From the NCBI GenBank assembly GCA_025289735.1, contig GCA_025289735.1_4764.3: a stretch of DNA of 17,548 bases. One strand, 5' to 3'. The position numbers and the translations under genes are program-made. Shown here piece after piece: positions 13,921 to 17,548 of this stretch (position 1 is the stretch's first letter; each line of letters opens with the position of its first letter). Below the pieces are notes generated by a model that was not told where the DNA came from, made no database searches, and worked only from the letters and a program-made list of their open reading frames with translations. The DNA is from a phage.

Positions 13921-13939
13921 AGGCCGCGCAAAGCGGCCT
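13921..13939 (-). terminator. Intergenic hairpin, possible weak terminator or RNA stabiliser (minus strand)
   Basis: AGGCCGC-gcaaa-GCGGCCT stem-loop between two minus-strand genes. On the minus strand it is followed by TTCTT and then the RBS of the next gene. Confidence 0.35.
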
Positions 13940-14287: not shown

Positions 14288-15280
14288 TTAGTAATGGCTA
14301 AAACCTTCGGTTACATCTTCAACCACATAGTAACGATGACAGCGCATTTTGGCATTCGCATAATCTTTCGGGATACTTACAACGTGACGCGGATCAACTT
14401 TACATTTAATGATTCGGCCTCGTCCACCGCCATAGTGCGGAATATAGTGTTTCGCTGCAACGTGGAGGCCATTAGAGCAAGTGCGATCATCATCTGGGTC
14501 CACGTCTTTACGCTTCATTTTAACCGTGCGCCCTGGGCTATTATCAAATGTATGCGTAAAGAAATCTTTATAATCAACATCAACACGTTTCCATGCATAG
14601 AAACAACCATCTTCCCCGATCTCAATGTCGTTGTGCTCTAAGAAGTCAAATAGACGATCTACCGCCTTACGGCTAGGGTTTTTCTTGCACTTCTCAAAGA
14701 AGTTCAGATAGTGCGTATATGGCTTATTCTCTTTAATCGACTCCACAACTCGACGAGTCAGATTATTATCAAGAACAATATTATGATAATACACAATACC
14801 ATTTTCGATACGGAAAGCGCCGTGATAATATACTTCAACCGCTTTCTTAATGTCAATCAGCGTAATTGCTTTAATAAAATCATTCTGCTTAATCGCTTCC
14901 AGTGCTTCATTAAAGTTAACATGCGACGGATCAGCAGTATAAACAATGTCGCCGCATGTAATAGTAATAAACTTAGTTGAGGCTATTGCGACGATTTTTG
15001 AGGAAGTAGTCACGGGCTTTTTTGCGCGTTCACCGCCTTTTCCTTTACTGGTTTTACGGCGTGCTTTACGTTTTTCTAGTGCCTTGCGACCTTCCGCTAC
15101 TGCGTCTTTCTGAATCAGTAATACACGGGAGGCAGTACGACGAGATACCCCAAATGCTGCCGCAAGTGCTTCGCGGGTAGTAAACTTACCTTCGCCCCAC
15201 TGTTTAGCCAGTTTGATTTGTTTCGCAGAATCCAGGCATTGAACGTTACGGTCAGAGACGGTGATTTTTGCTTTAGTCAT
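14288..15280 (-). CDS. rIIB: rIIB protein (about 330 aa)
   Basis: C-terminal two-thirds match recalled T4 rIIB blocks: KAVDRLFDFLEHNDIEIGEDGCFYAWKRV, FDNSPGRTVKMKR, TCSNGLHVAAKHYIPHYG, PRHVVSIPKDYANAKMR, YYVVEDVTE. The likely start is the ATG at 15278..15280, 9 nt from AGAGGA; the track start at 15289 abuts the SD. Confidence 0.85.
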   Translation of the reverse strand: MTKAKITVSDRNVQCLDSAKQIKLAKQWGEGKFTTREALAAAFGVSRRTASRVLLIQKDAVAEGRKALEKRKARRKTSKGKGGERAKKPVTTSSKIVAIASTKFITITCGDIVYTADPSHVNFNEALEAIKQNDFIKAITLIDIKKAVEVYYHGAFRIENGIVYYHNIVLDNNLTRRVVESIKENKPYTHYLNFFEKCKKNPSRKAVDRLFDFLEHNDIEIGEDGCFYAWKRVDVDYKDFFTHTFDNSPGRTVKMKRKDVDPDDDRTCSNGLHVAAKHYIPHYGGGRGRIIKCKVDPRHVVSIPKDYANAKMRCHRYYVVEDVTEGFSHY

Positions 15281-15342
15281 AGTATTCATTCCTCTATTAG
15301 TTGGGCGACTATCGCCGCCCGATTCACATCATTATACCAGAA

Positions 15343-15474
15343 TTATTTTGCTTCTACAACCTTGCGGATTGTGCGGTCTGATACATTATAGATTCGTGCC
15401 AGTTCGCCTTTAGTCAAGCCGCGAGCGTATTGTTTACGGATGGTTTCTTTCTGGATAGCGGTCAGTTTAGTCAT
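15343..15474 (-). CDS. Unlisted 43-aa helix-turn-helix mini-protein between rIIA and rIIB
   Basis: Hand translation of the minus strand: MTKLTAIQKETIRKQYARGLTKGELARIYNVSDRTIRKVVEAK. SD GAGGTGA 5 nt upstream of the ATG, overlapping the rIIA stop. Resembles the rIIB N-terminus (MTKAKITV...TTREALAAAFGVSRRTASRVL). Too short to appear in the ORF track. Confidence 0.5.
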   Translation of the reverse strand: MTKLTAIQKETIRKQYARGLTKGELARIYNVSDRTIRKVVEAK

Positions 15475-15485
15475 AATATCACCTC

Positions 15486-17548
15486 TTAAAATTTAACATT
15501 CTTAACCAGTTTCATAAAGTCTTGTGCGCGTTTGTCATTATGAAGAATACGATACCAGTTATCTACAATATCATACAGTAACGGGCTATTCTCTTTAAAC
15601 TTCGCACAAACTGCTTTAATTCGTTCGTTTGCTGCCGTGAATTTTTCGTCACAGATCTTTTTAGTTTCTTCGTCCATGATCCAACGAGTACGAAGGAGTA
15701 ACTTGGAAACCTCTTTATTATAATGACGACCGTACAGTCTGTCAATAAATTCTGGAACACAGCGTTCTAATTCATCGTCATGATACAACATAGTGATCAC
15801 GCCCAGATATTCGCCATACCCCAGATGATTGGTCTTAACCTTCTTAGCCAGACCAGCCAGCTTACCGCGAACAAATTCTAGCGCACATTCCAATTGTTCG
15901 TCAACGAGATATTTTTGTGTCTCGTTTCGAGTAATAATATACTTTGTTACCCCGAAGTAGTCAAGCGCCGTGTGTAATGTATTTTCACTATAGATCGATT
16001 GACGGCTACGGCTTTCGAATGCATCACCTACGCGGAACATATGCAAGCCTGATAACTCGCGAATCTCTGCCGCTTTCATGTGATGGCTGGTTTTATGCCA
16101 ACTGTCACCAATCTTTTCCATGATATACACGTTAGGCAGCTTGGGAGTAGCTTCACGTTGTGTACGCTCGGTCTTCTCCGGTTTAACTGCTTTAGCACGC
16201 AGATCATCGGCCTCAGACACTTTAATCACGGTCATTTCAGAATCATCATAATACTGTTTGATGTACTCGAAAGTCTCCATATGTTTTTCGTTGTTCTGAC
16301 GGAACACCAGTACCTTTTTATTGATGCCGTATTCCTGGACCATGCCGTTAAGAGTCAGTGCACGCAGTTTCGGTTTATCGGTATCATCAATAAGACACGT
16401 AATATCTTCTTTATGCATCCATACAAAATGCGTAATGTTGTATTGACTGCTAACGAAAGCAGGGCGCAATTTACTGATTGTGTGACGAGTACGATACAGA
16501 GTATACACCTGACCTTCTACGTCATTAGGCGAATCTTTACCCGCATTAACAAACTTATTATAGATTGCTACCGGATCATCCCATTGCCCGATCTTACCCA
16601 TCTTGCTAATAATATTTCGTTGCGTCGATGAATACTCGCTCATAAATTGCGCAAGTTTACGCTCTGTTTTAATGTTGGCGATCTTCTCTTTGACCTTTTC
16701 CAACATCATTTCATTGATTTCTGCAATGCGTTTTTCGATGTTCGCTTTAGTCTCAATTGACAAGTGAACTTCTTCACGCGATGGCATCAGGTCCAGATCA
16801 CCCAACTCAAAATTAATGTAAATGGTCTGGTGCTGGCGGTTTACAGCTTCTAACCATGTTCCGCGAACATATTCATACGGGATCGGATACTGGATCTTAC
16901 CCATGATTGCATATACTACATAGGAATCGTTATCACGCCCATTACACACATAATAATTATCAAAGCTAGGGAAATAATTAATTTCGATTGCATTGATATT
17001 AGGTTTGTGTTCCCCAAAATGACGAAGTACAAATTGTGCTTCTCGATGCCATGTCTGAATGTCTTTTTCTTTCACCGGAATAGTGATTTTCAGACCATTG
17101 TCTTCATAGGTCGGTTCGTCGAAAATCTGCACCATTTTCGGCATAGAGTTTTGCACAAATGCCGTAAAGCCATAAGCGCGACCATTGTAGTAGTTTACGA
17201 TTGTAAAGGTGTCAGTATAGCTATAAGCAGACTTCGCACCTAAACCAAAAGATCCGATATAATCATTAGTCTGGTCTTTGGTTGATTCAAAGTAAACCGT
17301 AAACAGTTGTTCTAATTCTTTCTTAGACGGAATACCAGTACCATAATCACGCACAGAAAAATACGGTTCAATTGCGGTAGGCAAATGAATATCAAACGGA
17401 CGATCTAAGGTTCCGGCTTCTTTGTGAGTGTCGGTAGCATTGCACGAATACTCACGGACGCAAGCACGCTCACAATATTGATAAGTGTTCTTAGAAAGCA
17501 CCATAAAAGCCTTGCTACTTGCTTTCAGTGAAAAATCAACCGCACCGC
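15486..17548 (-). CDS. rIIA: rIIA protein, 5'-truncated by the window edge (GHKL-type ATPase fold at the N-terminus)
   Basis: Reading frame stays open upstream of the track Met to the window end (...GAVDFSLKASSKAF-MVLSK...). SKAF, VREYSCNATDTH, DRPFDIHLP, VRDYGTGIP, DYIGSFGLGAKSAYSYTDTF and IEINYFPSFDNYY parallel recalled T4 rIIA N-terminal motifs. Position is upstream of rIIB as in T4. Confidence 0.85.
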   Translation of the reverse strand, partial: GAVDFSLKASSKAFMVLSKNTYQYCERACVREYSCNATDTHKEAGTLDRPFDIHLPTAIEPYFSVRDYGTGIPSKKELEQLFTVYFESTKDQTNDYIGSFGLGAKSAYSYTDTFTIVNYYNGRAYGFTAFVQNSMPKMVQIFDEPTYEDNGLKITIPVKEKDIQTWHREAQFVLRHFGEHKPNINAIEINYFPSFDNYYVCNGRDNDSYVVYAIMGKIQYPIPYEYVRGTWLEAVNRQHQTIYINFELGDLDLMPSREEVHLSIETKANIEKRIAEINEMMLEKVKEKIANIKTERKLAQFMSEYSSTQRNIISKMGKIGQWDDPVAIYNKFVNAGKDSPNDVEGQVYTLYRTRHTISKLRPAFVSSQYNITHFVWMHKEDITCLIDDTDKPKLRALTLNGMVQEYGINKKVLVFRQNNEKHMETFEYIKQYYDDSEMTVIKVSEADDLRAKAVKPEKTERTQREATPKLPNVYIMEKIGDSWHKTSHHMKAAEIRELSGLHMFRVGDAFESRSRQSIYSENTLHTALDYFGVTKYIITRNETQKYLVDEQLECALEFVRGKLAGLAKKVKTNHLGYGEYLGVITMLYHDDELERCVPEFIDRLYGRHYNKEVSKLLLRTRWIMDEETKKICDEKFTAANERIKAVCAKFKENSPLLYDIVDNWYRILHNDKRAQDFMKLVKNVKF

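What the first reader, a model, noticed from the sequence alone, without database searches (positions are those of the whole stretch)
15343..15474. Unlisted 43-aa HTH mini-gene inserted between rIIA and rIIB, apparently a duplicate of the rIIB N-terminal module
The rIIA stop and rIIB start are separated by about 200 bp carrying a short ORF with a strong SD that overlaps the rIIA stop, so it is translationally coupled. Its product starts MTK like rIIB and shares the pattern K-x-Y/W-x-x-G-x-x-T-x-x-E-L-A-x-x-x-x-V-S-x-R-T-x-x-R-V with the rIIB N-terminus. The same interval also holds a TATAAT box and a small hairpin just upstream of rIIB, so it may carry regulatory signals too. In T4, as I recall, the two rII cistrons are nearly contiguous.
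Basis: partly seen in the sequence, partly recalled or inferred. Interest (0 to 1): 0.7.

Follow-up and report, generated by a model that had tools for sequence, protein, structure and literature searches.

The report
Free-standing rIIB-type HTH mini-gene
Between the rIIA and rIIB genes of this RB49-like (Krischvirus) phage sits a real, conserved 43-codon gene for a tiny three-helix DNA-binding-type domain that occupies the spot where rIIB normally begins. It looks like a detached extra copy of the rIIB N-terminal domain, is already annotated as a hypothetical protein, and its function is untested.

Summary
A 43-aa ORF lies at 15343..15474 on the minus strand. A strong SD (GAGGTGAT) abuts the rIIA stop, and a TGgTATAAT box and a 7-bp G/C hairpin follow before rIIB.

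The window is a Krischvirus. The ORF is present in all 59 Krischvirus records and is annotated in nearly all of them (RB49ORF272c, phrog_15481), so it is not "unlisted". It folds as a three-helix HTH (pLDDT 92).

The "duplicate of the rIIB N-terminus" reading is partly supported:
- BLASTP against its own rIIB finds nothing.
- Profile comparison does (hhalign 95%).
- The peptide is much closer to canonical rIIB N-termini (JD18 53%, E 1e-8).
- It starts 11 nt after the rIIA stop, as T4 rIIB does.
- A relative's rIIB carries three tandem copies of the module.

This HTH type is widespread, and one HNH homing-endonuclease HTH matches better (55%), so rIIB descent is likely but unproven. The promoter plus hairpin fits the known PeSL cassette of RB49 and phi1.

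Verdict: a real gene and a new variant of the rII locus, of moderate interest. Its function is inferred, not shown.

The parts
15486..17548 (-). rIIA coding sequence (3' part). Its 5' end runs off the window: the gene is 2109 nt (702 aa) in RB49.
   Evidence: ORF list. Annotated as rIIA in RB49 and KFS-EC. Weak GHKL ATPase Pfam hits.
15717..15745 (-). Perfect sigma-70 consensus promoter-like site (TTGACA-N17-TATAAT) inside the 3' end of rIIA. It could drive a transcript covering the mini-ORF and rIIB.
   Evidence: 12 of 12 hexamer matches. Both hexamers are invariant in 11 Krischvirus sequences while flanking and spacer sites vary. Function not tested.
15478..15485 (-). Shine-Dalgarno GAGGTGAT of the mini-ORF. 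It lies directly after the rIIA stop TAA (15488..15486) and 3 nt before the ATG.
   Evidence: Read from the sequence. Invariant in 6 Krischvirus sequences. Same stop + 11 nt + ATG geometry as the T4 rIIA-rIIB junction.
15343..15474 (-). 43-aa mini-gene (RB49ORF272c homologue) encoding a three-helix helix-turn-helix protein of the rIIB N-terminal type.
15331..15359 (-). Predicted promoter for rIIB: -35 TTGTAG (15359..15354, within codons 39-41 of the mini-ORF), 17-nt spacer, extended -10 TGgTATAAT (15339..15331).
   Evidence: Annotated as a promoter in GEC-3S. Read from the sequence. The -35 is only 3 of 6 here (TTGTCG, 4 of 6, in most relatives). Spacing is destroyed by an 11-bp deletion in phage G37-3.
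15303..15320 (-). G/C stem-loop: 7-bp stem GGGCGGC/GTCGCCC (one G-U pair in RNA) and a 4-nt loop. It lies downstream of the -10 and is not followed by a T-run.
   Evidence: Predicted in the MFE and centroid folds. Stem invariant, with the only two substitutions in the loop. The promoter + G/C stem pattern is unique in the window. Fits the PeSL stem-loop description (PMC2839356).
15290..15294 (-). Shine-Dalgarno GAGGA of rIIB, 9 nt before the ATG at 15280.
   Evidence: Read from the sequence. Invariant.
14288..15280 (-). rIIB coding sequence (330 aa from the ATG at 15280). It is not in frame with the mini-ORF, and the rIIB frame is closed upstream by TGA at 15331..15329.
   Evidence: phrog_609 E 1.8e-106. 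PF26926 on identical products. Frame analysis.
15119..15250 (-). The diverged HTH module that is fused within rIIB (residues 11-54).
   Evidence: 31.0 bits against the rIIB N-terminal profile. hhalign 98.8% to canonical rIIB N-termini and 95.1% to the mini family. AF2 on the single sequence predicts helices 18-30, 36-43 and 47-53 (pLDDT 68).

Best explanation
The 43-codon ORF is a functional gene of the rII operon of Krischvirus-type phages. It encodes a free-standing three-helix HTH domain of the type that forms the N-terminus of RIIB in nearly all T4-like phages.

Likely origin (inferred). It is the positional descendant of the ancestral 5' end of rIIB, because it starts 11 nt after the rIIA stop exactly as T4 rIIB does. 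A partial duplication, or the split of a multi-HTH rIIB, then left a second and now strongly diverged HTH fused to the RIIB core. The two cistrons are separated by a PeSL-like cassette, the element type reported to mediate module shuffling in RB49 and phi1. The cassette comprises an AT-rich stop, an extended -10 promoter, a G/C stem-loop and an SD.

Likely way of working (inferred, not shown). The peptide is translated from the rIIA message through its strong SD at the rIIA stop. It acts in trans as an extra copy of the RIIB HTH module, binding the same ligand as the tethered module. By fold analogy that ligand is most probably DNA. It therefore serves as a small accessory subunit or modulator of the RIIA/RIIB system rather than as an unrelated regulator.
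For: Real gene under selection:
- Present in 59 of 59 Krischvirus records, with 54 identical proteins.
- Variable sites within the ORF are almost all synonymous third positions. All 6 variable sites in 11 sequences are third positions, as are 53 of 61 in rIIB. There are 6 synonymous changes against 1 non-synonymous (I7T) in records chosen by DNA similarity.
- An 11-bp deletion in G37-3 keeps the ORF and its stop intact.
- 42-45-aa homologues at 69-86% identity keep 28 invariant residues, mostly in helices 2 and 3.
- These homologues share exact contig lengths with the three closest rIIB relatives, which are only 54-62% identical. The peptide therefore evolves more slowly than rIIB.

HTH fold:
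- Pfam CENP-B_N 26 bits, above the cutoff of 21.2.
- AF2 pLDDT 92.3 with three helices.
- Foldseek TM 0.8 to the IstA, CENP-B and resolvase HTHs.

rIIB-type module:
- 53% identity to the JD18 rIIB N-terminus, E 1e-8, and T4 E 5e-4.
- Among 50,697 phage records the best non-self tblastn hits shown in the spread listing lie mostly on rIIB N-termini.
- 44.2 bits against the rIIB N-terminal profile.
- hhalign 99.2% to canonical and 95.1% to the fused Krischvirus-type module.

Position: the stop + 11 nt + ATG junction is identical in layout to T4, and rIIB abuts rIIA in JD18 and Metamorpho.

Module mobility in this protein family: P0009 has three tandem modules plus, apparently, a mini-gene. L023 carries the module at the C-terminus of an rIIB core.

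PeSL fit: searches compared with the descriptions in PMC2839356 and PMC4122927.
Against: - Direct similarity to its own rIIB N-terminus is weak (BLASTP E=26; Smith-Waterman z=4).
- The module type is widespread. A search of 1.84 billion representatives returned 138 hits, none with an rIIB core.
- The best single-domain match is a NUMOD4-HNH endonuclease HTH (45.8 bits against 34.7 for JD18).
- The rIIB N-terminal profile scores unrelated HTH repeats at 30-45 bits.
- The peptide's best score against rIIB N-termini is only at the 95th percentile of 224 generic modules.
- Adjacency of the diverged homologues to rIIA and rIIB could not be checked.
- There are no expression, DNA-binding or interaction data. 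No functional role of the RIIB HTH itself was found in the literature searched.
Confidence: 0.6

Rival explanations
1. The peptide is a domesticated remnant of the C-terminal DNA-binding HTH of a homing endonuclease (NUMOD4-HNH type) that once inserted at the rIIA/rIIB junction. Its resemblance to the rIIB N-terminus reflects only membership of the same broad HTH superfamily.
For: The best single-domain match in 1.84 billion representatives is P0198 (NUMOD4 + HNH_3), at 55% identity over 40 aa and 45.8 bits, better than any rIIB. P0218 is also HNH_3 + HTH. From general knowledge, homing endonucleases are common between conserved genes of T4-like phages.
Against: - There is no room for nuclease remnants and no trace of them: 11 nt upstream and 62 nt downstream.
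- The ORF starts at the module boundary, 11 nt after the rIIA stop, exactly as rIIB does in T4.
- The P0198 HTH itself is only average against rIIB N-termini (68, against 86-96 for the mini family).
- The listed top relatives of P0198 in phages are not T4-like coliphages.
- The best hit out of 1.84 billion is expected to be high for any HTH.
- The module is seen duplicating within rIIB in a close relative.
Confidence: 0.12
2. Whatever its origin, the peptide works as an autonomous small transcription regulator rather than as part of the RII machinery. For example, it could bind the promoter/stem-loop cassette just downstream to tune rIIB expression, or bind PeSL G/C stem-loops genome-wide.
For: - It has an HTH fold.
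- PHROG profile hits to late transcriptional activators and DNA-binding proteins are stronger than to the long rIIB profile.
- It sits immediately upstream of a promoter + inverted-repeat cassette.
- Arbiol et al. speculated that PeSL stem-loops may be targets of a specific DNA-binding protein (PMC2839356).
- Iyer et al. treat rIIB itself as a specific transcription factor (PMC7824862).
Against: - A single 43-aa HTH with no evident dimerisation or effector domain usually binds weakly on its own (general knowledge).
- G37-3 lost the promoter spacing but kept the ORF, so the ORF is not tied to that promoter.
- No repeated operator-like motif was found. The promoter + G/C stem pattern occurs once in the window.
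- There are no experimental data.
Confidence: 0.2
3. The ORF is a chance or decaying reading frame in a regulatory spacer, and the real feature is only the promoter/hairpin cassette.
For: It is very short. No experimental evidence of expression was found.
Against: - Substitutions are nearly all synonymous.
- Length is conserved in homologues down to 69% identity, with helices 2 and 3 invariant.
- The SD is strong.
- The fold is predicted with high confidence.
- A Pfam hit lies above its gathering score.
- The ORF survives a deletion that damages the promoter.
Confidence: 0.03

Closest known systems
N-terminal HTH domain of RIIB (T4 rIIB, JD18 rIIB and other Straboviridae)
   Same: It has the same three-helix module and motif (L-x-x-x-Q-K-x-x-I ... 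G-x-T-K-x-E-L-A-x-x-Y-x-V-S-x-x-T-I-R-x-V). It begins at the protein's first residues. Its start codon has the same position relative to the rIIA stop. Identity is 53% to JD18 and 41% to T4.
   Different: It is a separate 43-aa protein that ends two residues after helix 3. It is not joined to the linker and core domain, and a second, diverged copy remains fused to RIIB in the same phage.
PeSL cassettes (promoter-early stem-loop) of RB49/phi1, Arbiol et al. 2010 (PMC2839356) and Comeau et al. 2014 (PMC4122927)
   Same: The spacer has the described layout. The upstream stop codon lies in an AT-rich stretch, followed by a sigma-70-type promoter, a G-run/C-run stem-loop placed downstream of the -10 (one of the five described subclasses), an SD and an ATG. 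It occurs in an RB49-type genome.
   Different: The -35 is weak (3-4 of 6), whereas near-perfect consensus is described. The cassette lies within the conserved rII locus rather than a hyperplastic region. Neither paper mentions rIIA or rIIB, so it is not shown to be one of their listed PeSLs.
C-terminal HTH of NUMOD4-HNH homing endonucleases (e.g. P0198)
   Same: It is the best pairwise match to the peptide (55% over 40 aa) and has the same tri-helical module.
   Different: No nuclease domain or remnant is present here. The peptide is N-terminal or stand-alone rather than C-terminal, and the P0198 HTH is not especially rIIB-like.
Simple tri-helical HTH domains of transposases and recombinases (IstA N-terminal HTH, gamma-delta resolvase/Hin HTH_7, CENP-B N-terminal domain)
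   Same: The predicted fold superposes at TM about 0.8 and rmsd 1.1-1.6 A. Pfam CENP-B_N scores above its cutoff and HTH_7 gives a weak hit.
   Different: In those proteins the domain is tethered to catalytic or oligomerising domains. Here it is the whole protein.

Membership tests
rIIB N-terminal HTH module | Sequence matches a profile of rIIB N-termini | tested here: met
   44.2 bits, E 5e-10 at Z=1e6, against an HMM of 95 non-Krischvirus rIIB N-termini. hhalign 99.2%, E 1.2e-19. BLASTP E 1e-8 to JD18.
rIIB N-terminal HTH module | Closer to rIIB N-termini than to HTH modules of other protein families | tested here: inconclusive
   Among sequenced phages the best non-self hits listed lie mostly on rIIB N-termini. 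Against 1.84 billion representatives, however, an HNH-endonuclease HTH scores higher. The rIIB profile scores generic HTH repeats at 30-45 bits. The peptide is at the 95th percentile of 224 generic modules.
rIIB N-terminal HTH module | Encoded immediately downstream of the rIIA stop codon | tested here: met
   The ATG lies 11 nt after the rIIA TAA, the same layout as T4. In JD18 and Metamorpho the genes abut.
rIIB N-terminal HTH module | Covalently joined to the RIIB linker and core domain | tested here: not met
   The ORF ends with TAA at 15345..15343. rIIB is in another frame, which is closed by TGA at 15331..15329. It is therefore a free-standing paralogue, not an RIIB.
Tri-helical HTH DNA-binding domain (CENP-B_N / HTH_7 / homeodomain-like) | Profile match above the curated threshold | tested here: met
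   PF04218 CENP-B_N 26.0 bits against a cutoff of 21.2. Many other HTH families match below their cutoffs.
Tri-helical HTH DNA-binding domain (CENP-B_N / HTH_7 / homeodomain-like) | Three-helix fold with helix-turn-helix geometry | tested here: met
   AF2 single-sequence model with pLDDT 92.3 and helices 6-17, 22-28 and 33-41. Foldseek TM 0.79-0.84 to the IstA and CENP-B HTHs, with weak E-values because the query is so short.
Tri-helical HTH DNA-binding domain (CENP-B_N / HTH_7 / homeodomain-like) | Binds DNA | not testable with these tools
   Needs EMSA, ChIP or similar.
PeSL regulatory cassette (RB49/phi1) | Strong sigma-70-like promoter between the upstream stop and the downstream ATG | tested here: inconclusive
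   The -10 is perfect with an extended TG, but the -35 is 3 of 6 (4 of 6 in most relatives) and was not picked up by the consensus scan. Activity not tested.
PeSL regulatory cassette (RB49/phi1) | Stable stem-loop with a G-run / C-run stem next to the promoter | tested here: met
   7-bp stem GGGCGGC/GUCGCCC in the MFE and centroid folds. The stem is invariant and the loop varies. Its position downstream of the -10 is one of the described subclasses (PMC2839356).
PeSL regulatory cassette (RB49/phi1) | Member of a repeated family dispersed in the genome and listed by the authors | not tested
   Only one such pattern occurs in this 17.5-kb window. The whole genome was not scanned, and the papers do not mention the rII locus.
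Homing endonuclease (NUMOD4-HNH) or remnant | Nuclease domain or recognisable remnant adjacent to the HTH | tested here: not met
   There is no Pfam nuclease hit on the peptide. Only 11 nt and 62 nt of non-coding flank remain.
Translationally coupled cistron pair (rIIA to mini-ORF) | Stop codon of the upstream gene within or next to the SD and start of the downstream gene | tested here: met
   The sequence reads TAAGAGGTGATATTATG. Actual coupling of translation is not testable here.

The most novel reading that the evidence does not exclude
The 43-aa peptide is a genuine third subunit of the RII counter-defence system: the RIIB HTH module working in trans, made in step with RIIA.

If so, Krischvirus-type phages would be a natural experiment. 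In them the long-unexplained N-terminal domain of RIIB can be removed, titrated or swapped without touching the RIIB core. That would make its ligand directly testable, whether that is DNA, RIIA, RexAB or a host sensor such as the RIIB-triggered CARD/gasdermin system.

A bolder variant is that the peptide is the sequence-specific binder of PeSL G/C stem-loops that Arbiol et al. postulated for module shuffling.
Probability: 0.15. Interest if true: 0.7.

Novelty: new variant of a known kind. Interest (0 to 1): 0.4.

Why it matters
RIIA/RIIB is one of the oldest unsolved phage systems. It overcomes RexAB exclusion and triggers a bacterial CARD/gasdermin defence (bioRxiv 10.1101/2023.05.28.542683), yet its mechanism is unknown, and no functional study of the RIIB N-terminal HTH turned up in the literature searched.

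Three findings suggest that this HTH is an autonomous and evolutionarily mobile part of the system. One phage clade keeps a free-standing, strongly conserved copy at the ancestral rIIB start. A relative's rIIB carries three tandem copies. A distant protein has the module at the other end of the core domain.

This gives a simple genetic handle for asking what the HTH binds. It also adds a concrete example, within a conserved locus, of the kind of PeSL-type cassette proposed to drive gene shuffling in RB49-like phages.

If the peptide turns out to be inert, the finding is only an annotation refinement.

Tried and rejected

2. Scans of IMG/VR with the mini family and with the Krischvirus-type rIIB alignment found only near-identical Krischvirus loci plus unrelated HTHs. 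L006 is an unrelated phage. The single metagenome scan recovered one identical locus, an unrelated 176-aa protein (L024) and the permuted protein in L023.

No full-length RIIB model was made.

4. No solved structure of RIIB was found by sequence. The mini family gives only marginal PDB sequence hits.

5. A read-through or frameshift fusion of the mini-ORF to rIIB was rejected. The two are 194 nt out of register, and TGA at 15331..15329 closes the rIIB frame.

6. The hairpin as an intrinsic terminator was rejected, because no T-run follows it and it was not found by the terminator scan. PeSL stem-loops were nevertheless reported to terminate (PMC2839356).

7. The ATG at 15289 as the rIIB start was rejected for lack of SD spacing.

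8. NCBIfam gave nothing above its cutoffs.

9. Literature searches for the ORF, for an rIIB HTH study and for Krischvirus transcriptomics found nothing specific.

10. The NJ tree of 43-column modules was used only descriptively. It has no support values.
Full report
**What is there.** The window is an RB49-like phage (genus Krischvirus, Straboviridae). A 1.5-kb stretch around the finding matches 59 phage records at 97-99% identity, all of them Krischvirus.

On the minus strand the order of features is as follows:
- rIIA, from 15486 to beyond the window end;
- a 43-codon ORF at 15343..15474;
- rIIB at 14288..15280;
- three small ORFs;
- the topoisomerase II gene.

The ORF encodes MTKLTAIQKETIRKQYARGLTKGELARIYNVSDRTIRKVVEAK. 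The rIIA stop TAA (15488..15486) is followed at once by GAGGTGAT, an 8-nt match to the anti-SD, and the ATG comes 11 nt after the stop.

After the ORF's TAA comes a 62-nt spacer. It holds TTGTAG-N17-TGgTATAAT (15359..15331), an 18-nt stem-loop GGGCGGC-GATA-GTCGCCC (15320..15303), GAGGA, and then the rIIB ATG at 15280. GenBank records start rIIB at this ATG (330 aa). The upstream ATG at 15289 has no spaced SD.

**It is a real gene, and it is already annotated.** The ORF is annotated as a hypothetical protein in RB49 (RB49ORF272c), in KFS-EC and in nearly all other Krischvirus records. One record calls it a 'DNA binding HTH domain protein'. It has its own PHROG of unknown function (phrog_15481).

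All 59 records carry it, and 54 have the identical protein. Several lines of evidence point to purifying selection:
- In 11 aligned Krischvirus sequences, all 6 variable sites in the ORF are third codon positions, as are 53 of 61 in rIIB. Part of that sample was chosen by exact protein identity.
- In records chosen by DNA similarity there are six synonymous changes and one replacement, I7T.
- Phage G37-3 has an 11-bp deletion that preserves the last codons and the stop while wrecking the spacing of the downstream promoter.
- Public metagenomes hold 42-45-aa homologues at 69-86% identity. Helices 2 and 3 (TKGELAR.YNVSDRTIR.VVE) are invariant and changes are confined mostly to helix 1.
- Three of these homologues come from contigs whose lengths (17,491, 3,420 and 36,474 bp) equal those of the contigs carrying the three closest rIIB relatives, which are only 54-62% identical to this rIIB. 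The peptide has apparently been kept next to rIIB over substantial divergence and evolves more slowly than rIIB.

Adjacency there is therefore inferred, not seen.

**What the protein is.** Pfam CENP-B_N scores above its gathering threshold, at 26 bits against 21.2. A dozen other HTH families match weakly.

AlphaFold2 on the single sequence gives a confident three-helix bundle, with pLDDT 92.3 and helices 6-17, 22-28 and 33-41. Foldseek puts it closest to the N-terminal HTH of IstA transposase, the CENP-B domain and the gamma-delta resolvase HTH. TM is about 0.8 and rmsd 1.1-1.6 A, with weak E-values because of its size. It is a minimal tri-helical HTH.

**Relation to rIIB.** The direct comparison is weak. 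BLASTP finds no N-terminal alignment (E=26). Smith-Waterman gives a score of 41, z=4.0.

The wider picture supports a family relationship:
- Nearly all of about 120 rIIB homologues begin with the same module, of the form M.VK.L...QK..I.....G.tK..LA..fgVS..TI.RV.
- The peptide is 53% identical to the JD18 rIIB N-terminus (E 1e-8) and 41% identical to that of T4 (E 5e-4).
- In a tblastn of 50,697 phage genomes, most non-Krischvirus hits shown in a spread listing of the ranking lie on rIIB N-termini, including the strongest ones.
- A profile of 95 non-Krischvirus rIIB N-termini scores the peptide 44.2 bits and this phage's own rIIB residues 11-54 at 31.0 bits.
- hhalign gives 99.2% (mini family against canonical), 98.8% (Krischvirus-type fused module against canonical) and 95.1% (mini against fused).
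- A modest single-sequence model of rIIB residues 1-65 shows the same three-helix pattern, shifted by about 12 residues.

Krischvirus therefore has two copies of the module. The free one is close to the consensus. The fused one is divergent, with an N-terminal extension (MTKAKITVSDRNVQCL) and a long basic linker. In an unbootstrapped NJ tree the two fall in separate clades. Any duplication is therefore old, or the copies come from different lineages.

**Position.** In T4 the rIIA stop is followed by 11 nt (TAAGGAAAATT) and then the rIIB ATG. Here the rIIA stop is followed by 11 nt (GAGGTGATATT) and then the mini-ORF ATG. In JD18 and Metamorpho rIIB abuts rIIA. The mini-ORF thus occupies the ancestral start of rIIB.

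A close relative's rIIB (P0009, 459 aa) carries three tandem modules, scoring 55, 45 and 39 bits. A distant metagenomic protein (L023) has the rIIB core first and the module last. The module is evidently mobile within this family.

**Caveat on specificity.** A HMMER search of 1.84 billion representatives returned 138 hits, none with an rIIB core. They are tandem multi-HTH proteins and HNH homing endonucleases with a C-terminal HTH.

The best single domain is in P0198 (NUMOD4 + HNH_3). It is 55% identical and scores 45.8 bits, better than JD18 rIIB at 34.7 bits. The rIIB N-terminal profile also scores generic HTH repeats at 30-45 bits. The peptide's best score against rIIB N-termini (86; family range 86-96) lies at about the 95th percentile of 224 generic modules.

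Sequence alone therefore does not prove descent from rIIB, and the case rests on sequence plus position. Several points argue against the endonuclease-remnant rival:
- There is no nuclease remnant and no room for one.
- The ORF starts at the module boundary.
- The P0198 HTH is not rIIB-like.
- The listed top phage relatives of P0198 are not T4-like coliphages.

**The spacer.** GEC-3S annotators marked the same -35 and -10 as a promoter. The layout runs as follows: an upstream stop in an AT-rich stretch, a sigma-70-type promoter, a G-run/C-run stem-loop downstream of the -10, an SD and an ATG.

This layout matches the PeSL ('promoter-early stem-loop') cassettes described in RB49 and phi1. Those cassettes were reported to act as promoters and terminators and to mediate module shuffling (PMC2839356, PMC4122927).

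The stem is invariant and the only two substitutions fall in the loop. Differences from the description are a weak -35 (3-4 of 6) and the location in a conserved locus. The papers do not mention rII. I therefore call it PeSL-like.

A perfect TTGACA-N17-TATAAT lies inside rIIA at 15745..15717, with invariant hexamers. It could give a transcript covering the mini-gene and rIIB. The mini-ORF and rIIB are out of frame, and the rIIB frame is closed upstream, so no fusion protein is expected.

**How it most likely works.**

Shown:
- a conserved, selected ORF with a strong SD at the rIIA stop;
- an HTH fold;
- membership of the module type used by the RIIB N-terminus;
- the ancestral rIIB start position;
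- a promoter/stem-loop cassette before rIIB.

Inferred:
- The peptide is translated from the rIIA message, possibly by coupling.
- It acts in trans as an extra RIIB-type HTH and binds the same ligand as the tethered module, probably DNA.
- It is therefore an accessory of the RIIA/RIIB system, whose own mechanism is unknown. RIIA/RIIB overcomes RexAB, and RIIB triggers a CARD/gasdermin defence (bioRxiv 10.1101/2023.05.28.542683). Iyer et al. regard rIIB as a transcription factor (PMC7824862).

Rivals are an autonomous small regulator acting on the adjacent cassette or on PeSL stem-loops, a domesticated homing-endonuclease HTH, and a non-functional ORF. The last is effectively excluded.

**Verdict.** The gene is already annotated as a hypothetical protein. 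Its reading as a free-standing RIIB-type HTH at the ancestral rIIB start, separated from rIIB by a PeSL-like cassette, did not turn up in the literature searched. It is a new variant of a known locus, of moderate interest, and it offers a clear genetic test.

Noticed in passing
L023 2764..4044 (+): A metagenomic 426-aa protein has the rIIB core domain at its N-terminus and an rIIB/mini-type HTH (ELARAYNVSDRTIRRI) at its C-terminus. This is the reverse of the usual domain order.
   Followed up: partly
P0009 (459 aa; ENA contig of 17,491 bp, not retrievable): This rIIB relative (54% identical) has three tandem N-terminal HTH modules (55.5, 45.5 and 39.4 bits). Modules 2 and 3 are 64% identical to each other. 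A 43-aa mini-gene homologue (P0005) comes from a contig of the same length.
   Followed up: partly
window 15717..15745 (-): A perfect sigma-70 consensus TTGACA-N17-TATAAT lies inside the 3' end of rIIA. Both hexamers are invariant in 11 Krischvirus sequences while neighbouring sites vary. It is a possible internal promoter for the mini-gene and rIIB, as T4 is said to have inside rIIA (from memory).
   Followed up: partly
L025 1..220 (phage vB_EcoM_G37-3, MK327941): An 11-bp deletion (ATAATTCTGGT) between short AAATAAT repeats removes the -35/-10 spacing of the predicted rIIB promoter but leaves the mini-ORF and its stop codon intact.
   Followed up: yes
window 15280 vs 15289 (-): The rIIB start codon is ambiguous. 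The longest ORF starts at 15289 (MNTMTK...), and phage SSG23 is annotated that way. The SD spacing and most records favour 15280 (MTKAK..., 330 aa).
   Followed up: yes
P0076, P0102 (Aeromonas phage phiAS5-type rIIB, about 432 aa): These rIIB proteins start with two repeats of a different HTH-like unit (…LGRGVLARELNI.ES.ARKMIE…). This suggests repeated N-terminal module duplication in other rIIB lineages as well.
   Followed up: no
window 13921..13939: A G/C-rich palindromic stem-loop (AGGCCGCGCAAAGCGGCCT) sits in the 45-nt gap between the 108-aa and 97-aa ORFs downstream of rIIB. It may be another PeSL-type stem-loop.
   Followed up: no
window 15472..15474 and 15278..15280 (-): The mini-ORF and rIIB both begin with the identical nine bases ATGACTAAA (MTK). 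This is too short to be evidence of a duplication, but it is the only DNA-level resemblance seen.
   Followed up: no
search of 1.84 billion representatives: Many proteins of 200-700 aa consist of 4-9 tandem repeats of this HTH module type. Some end in an HNH nuclease domain (P0130, P0133). No function for this repeat architecture was looked up.
   Followed up: partly
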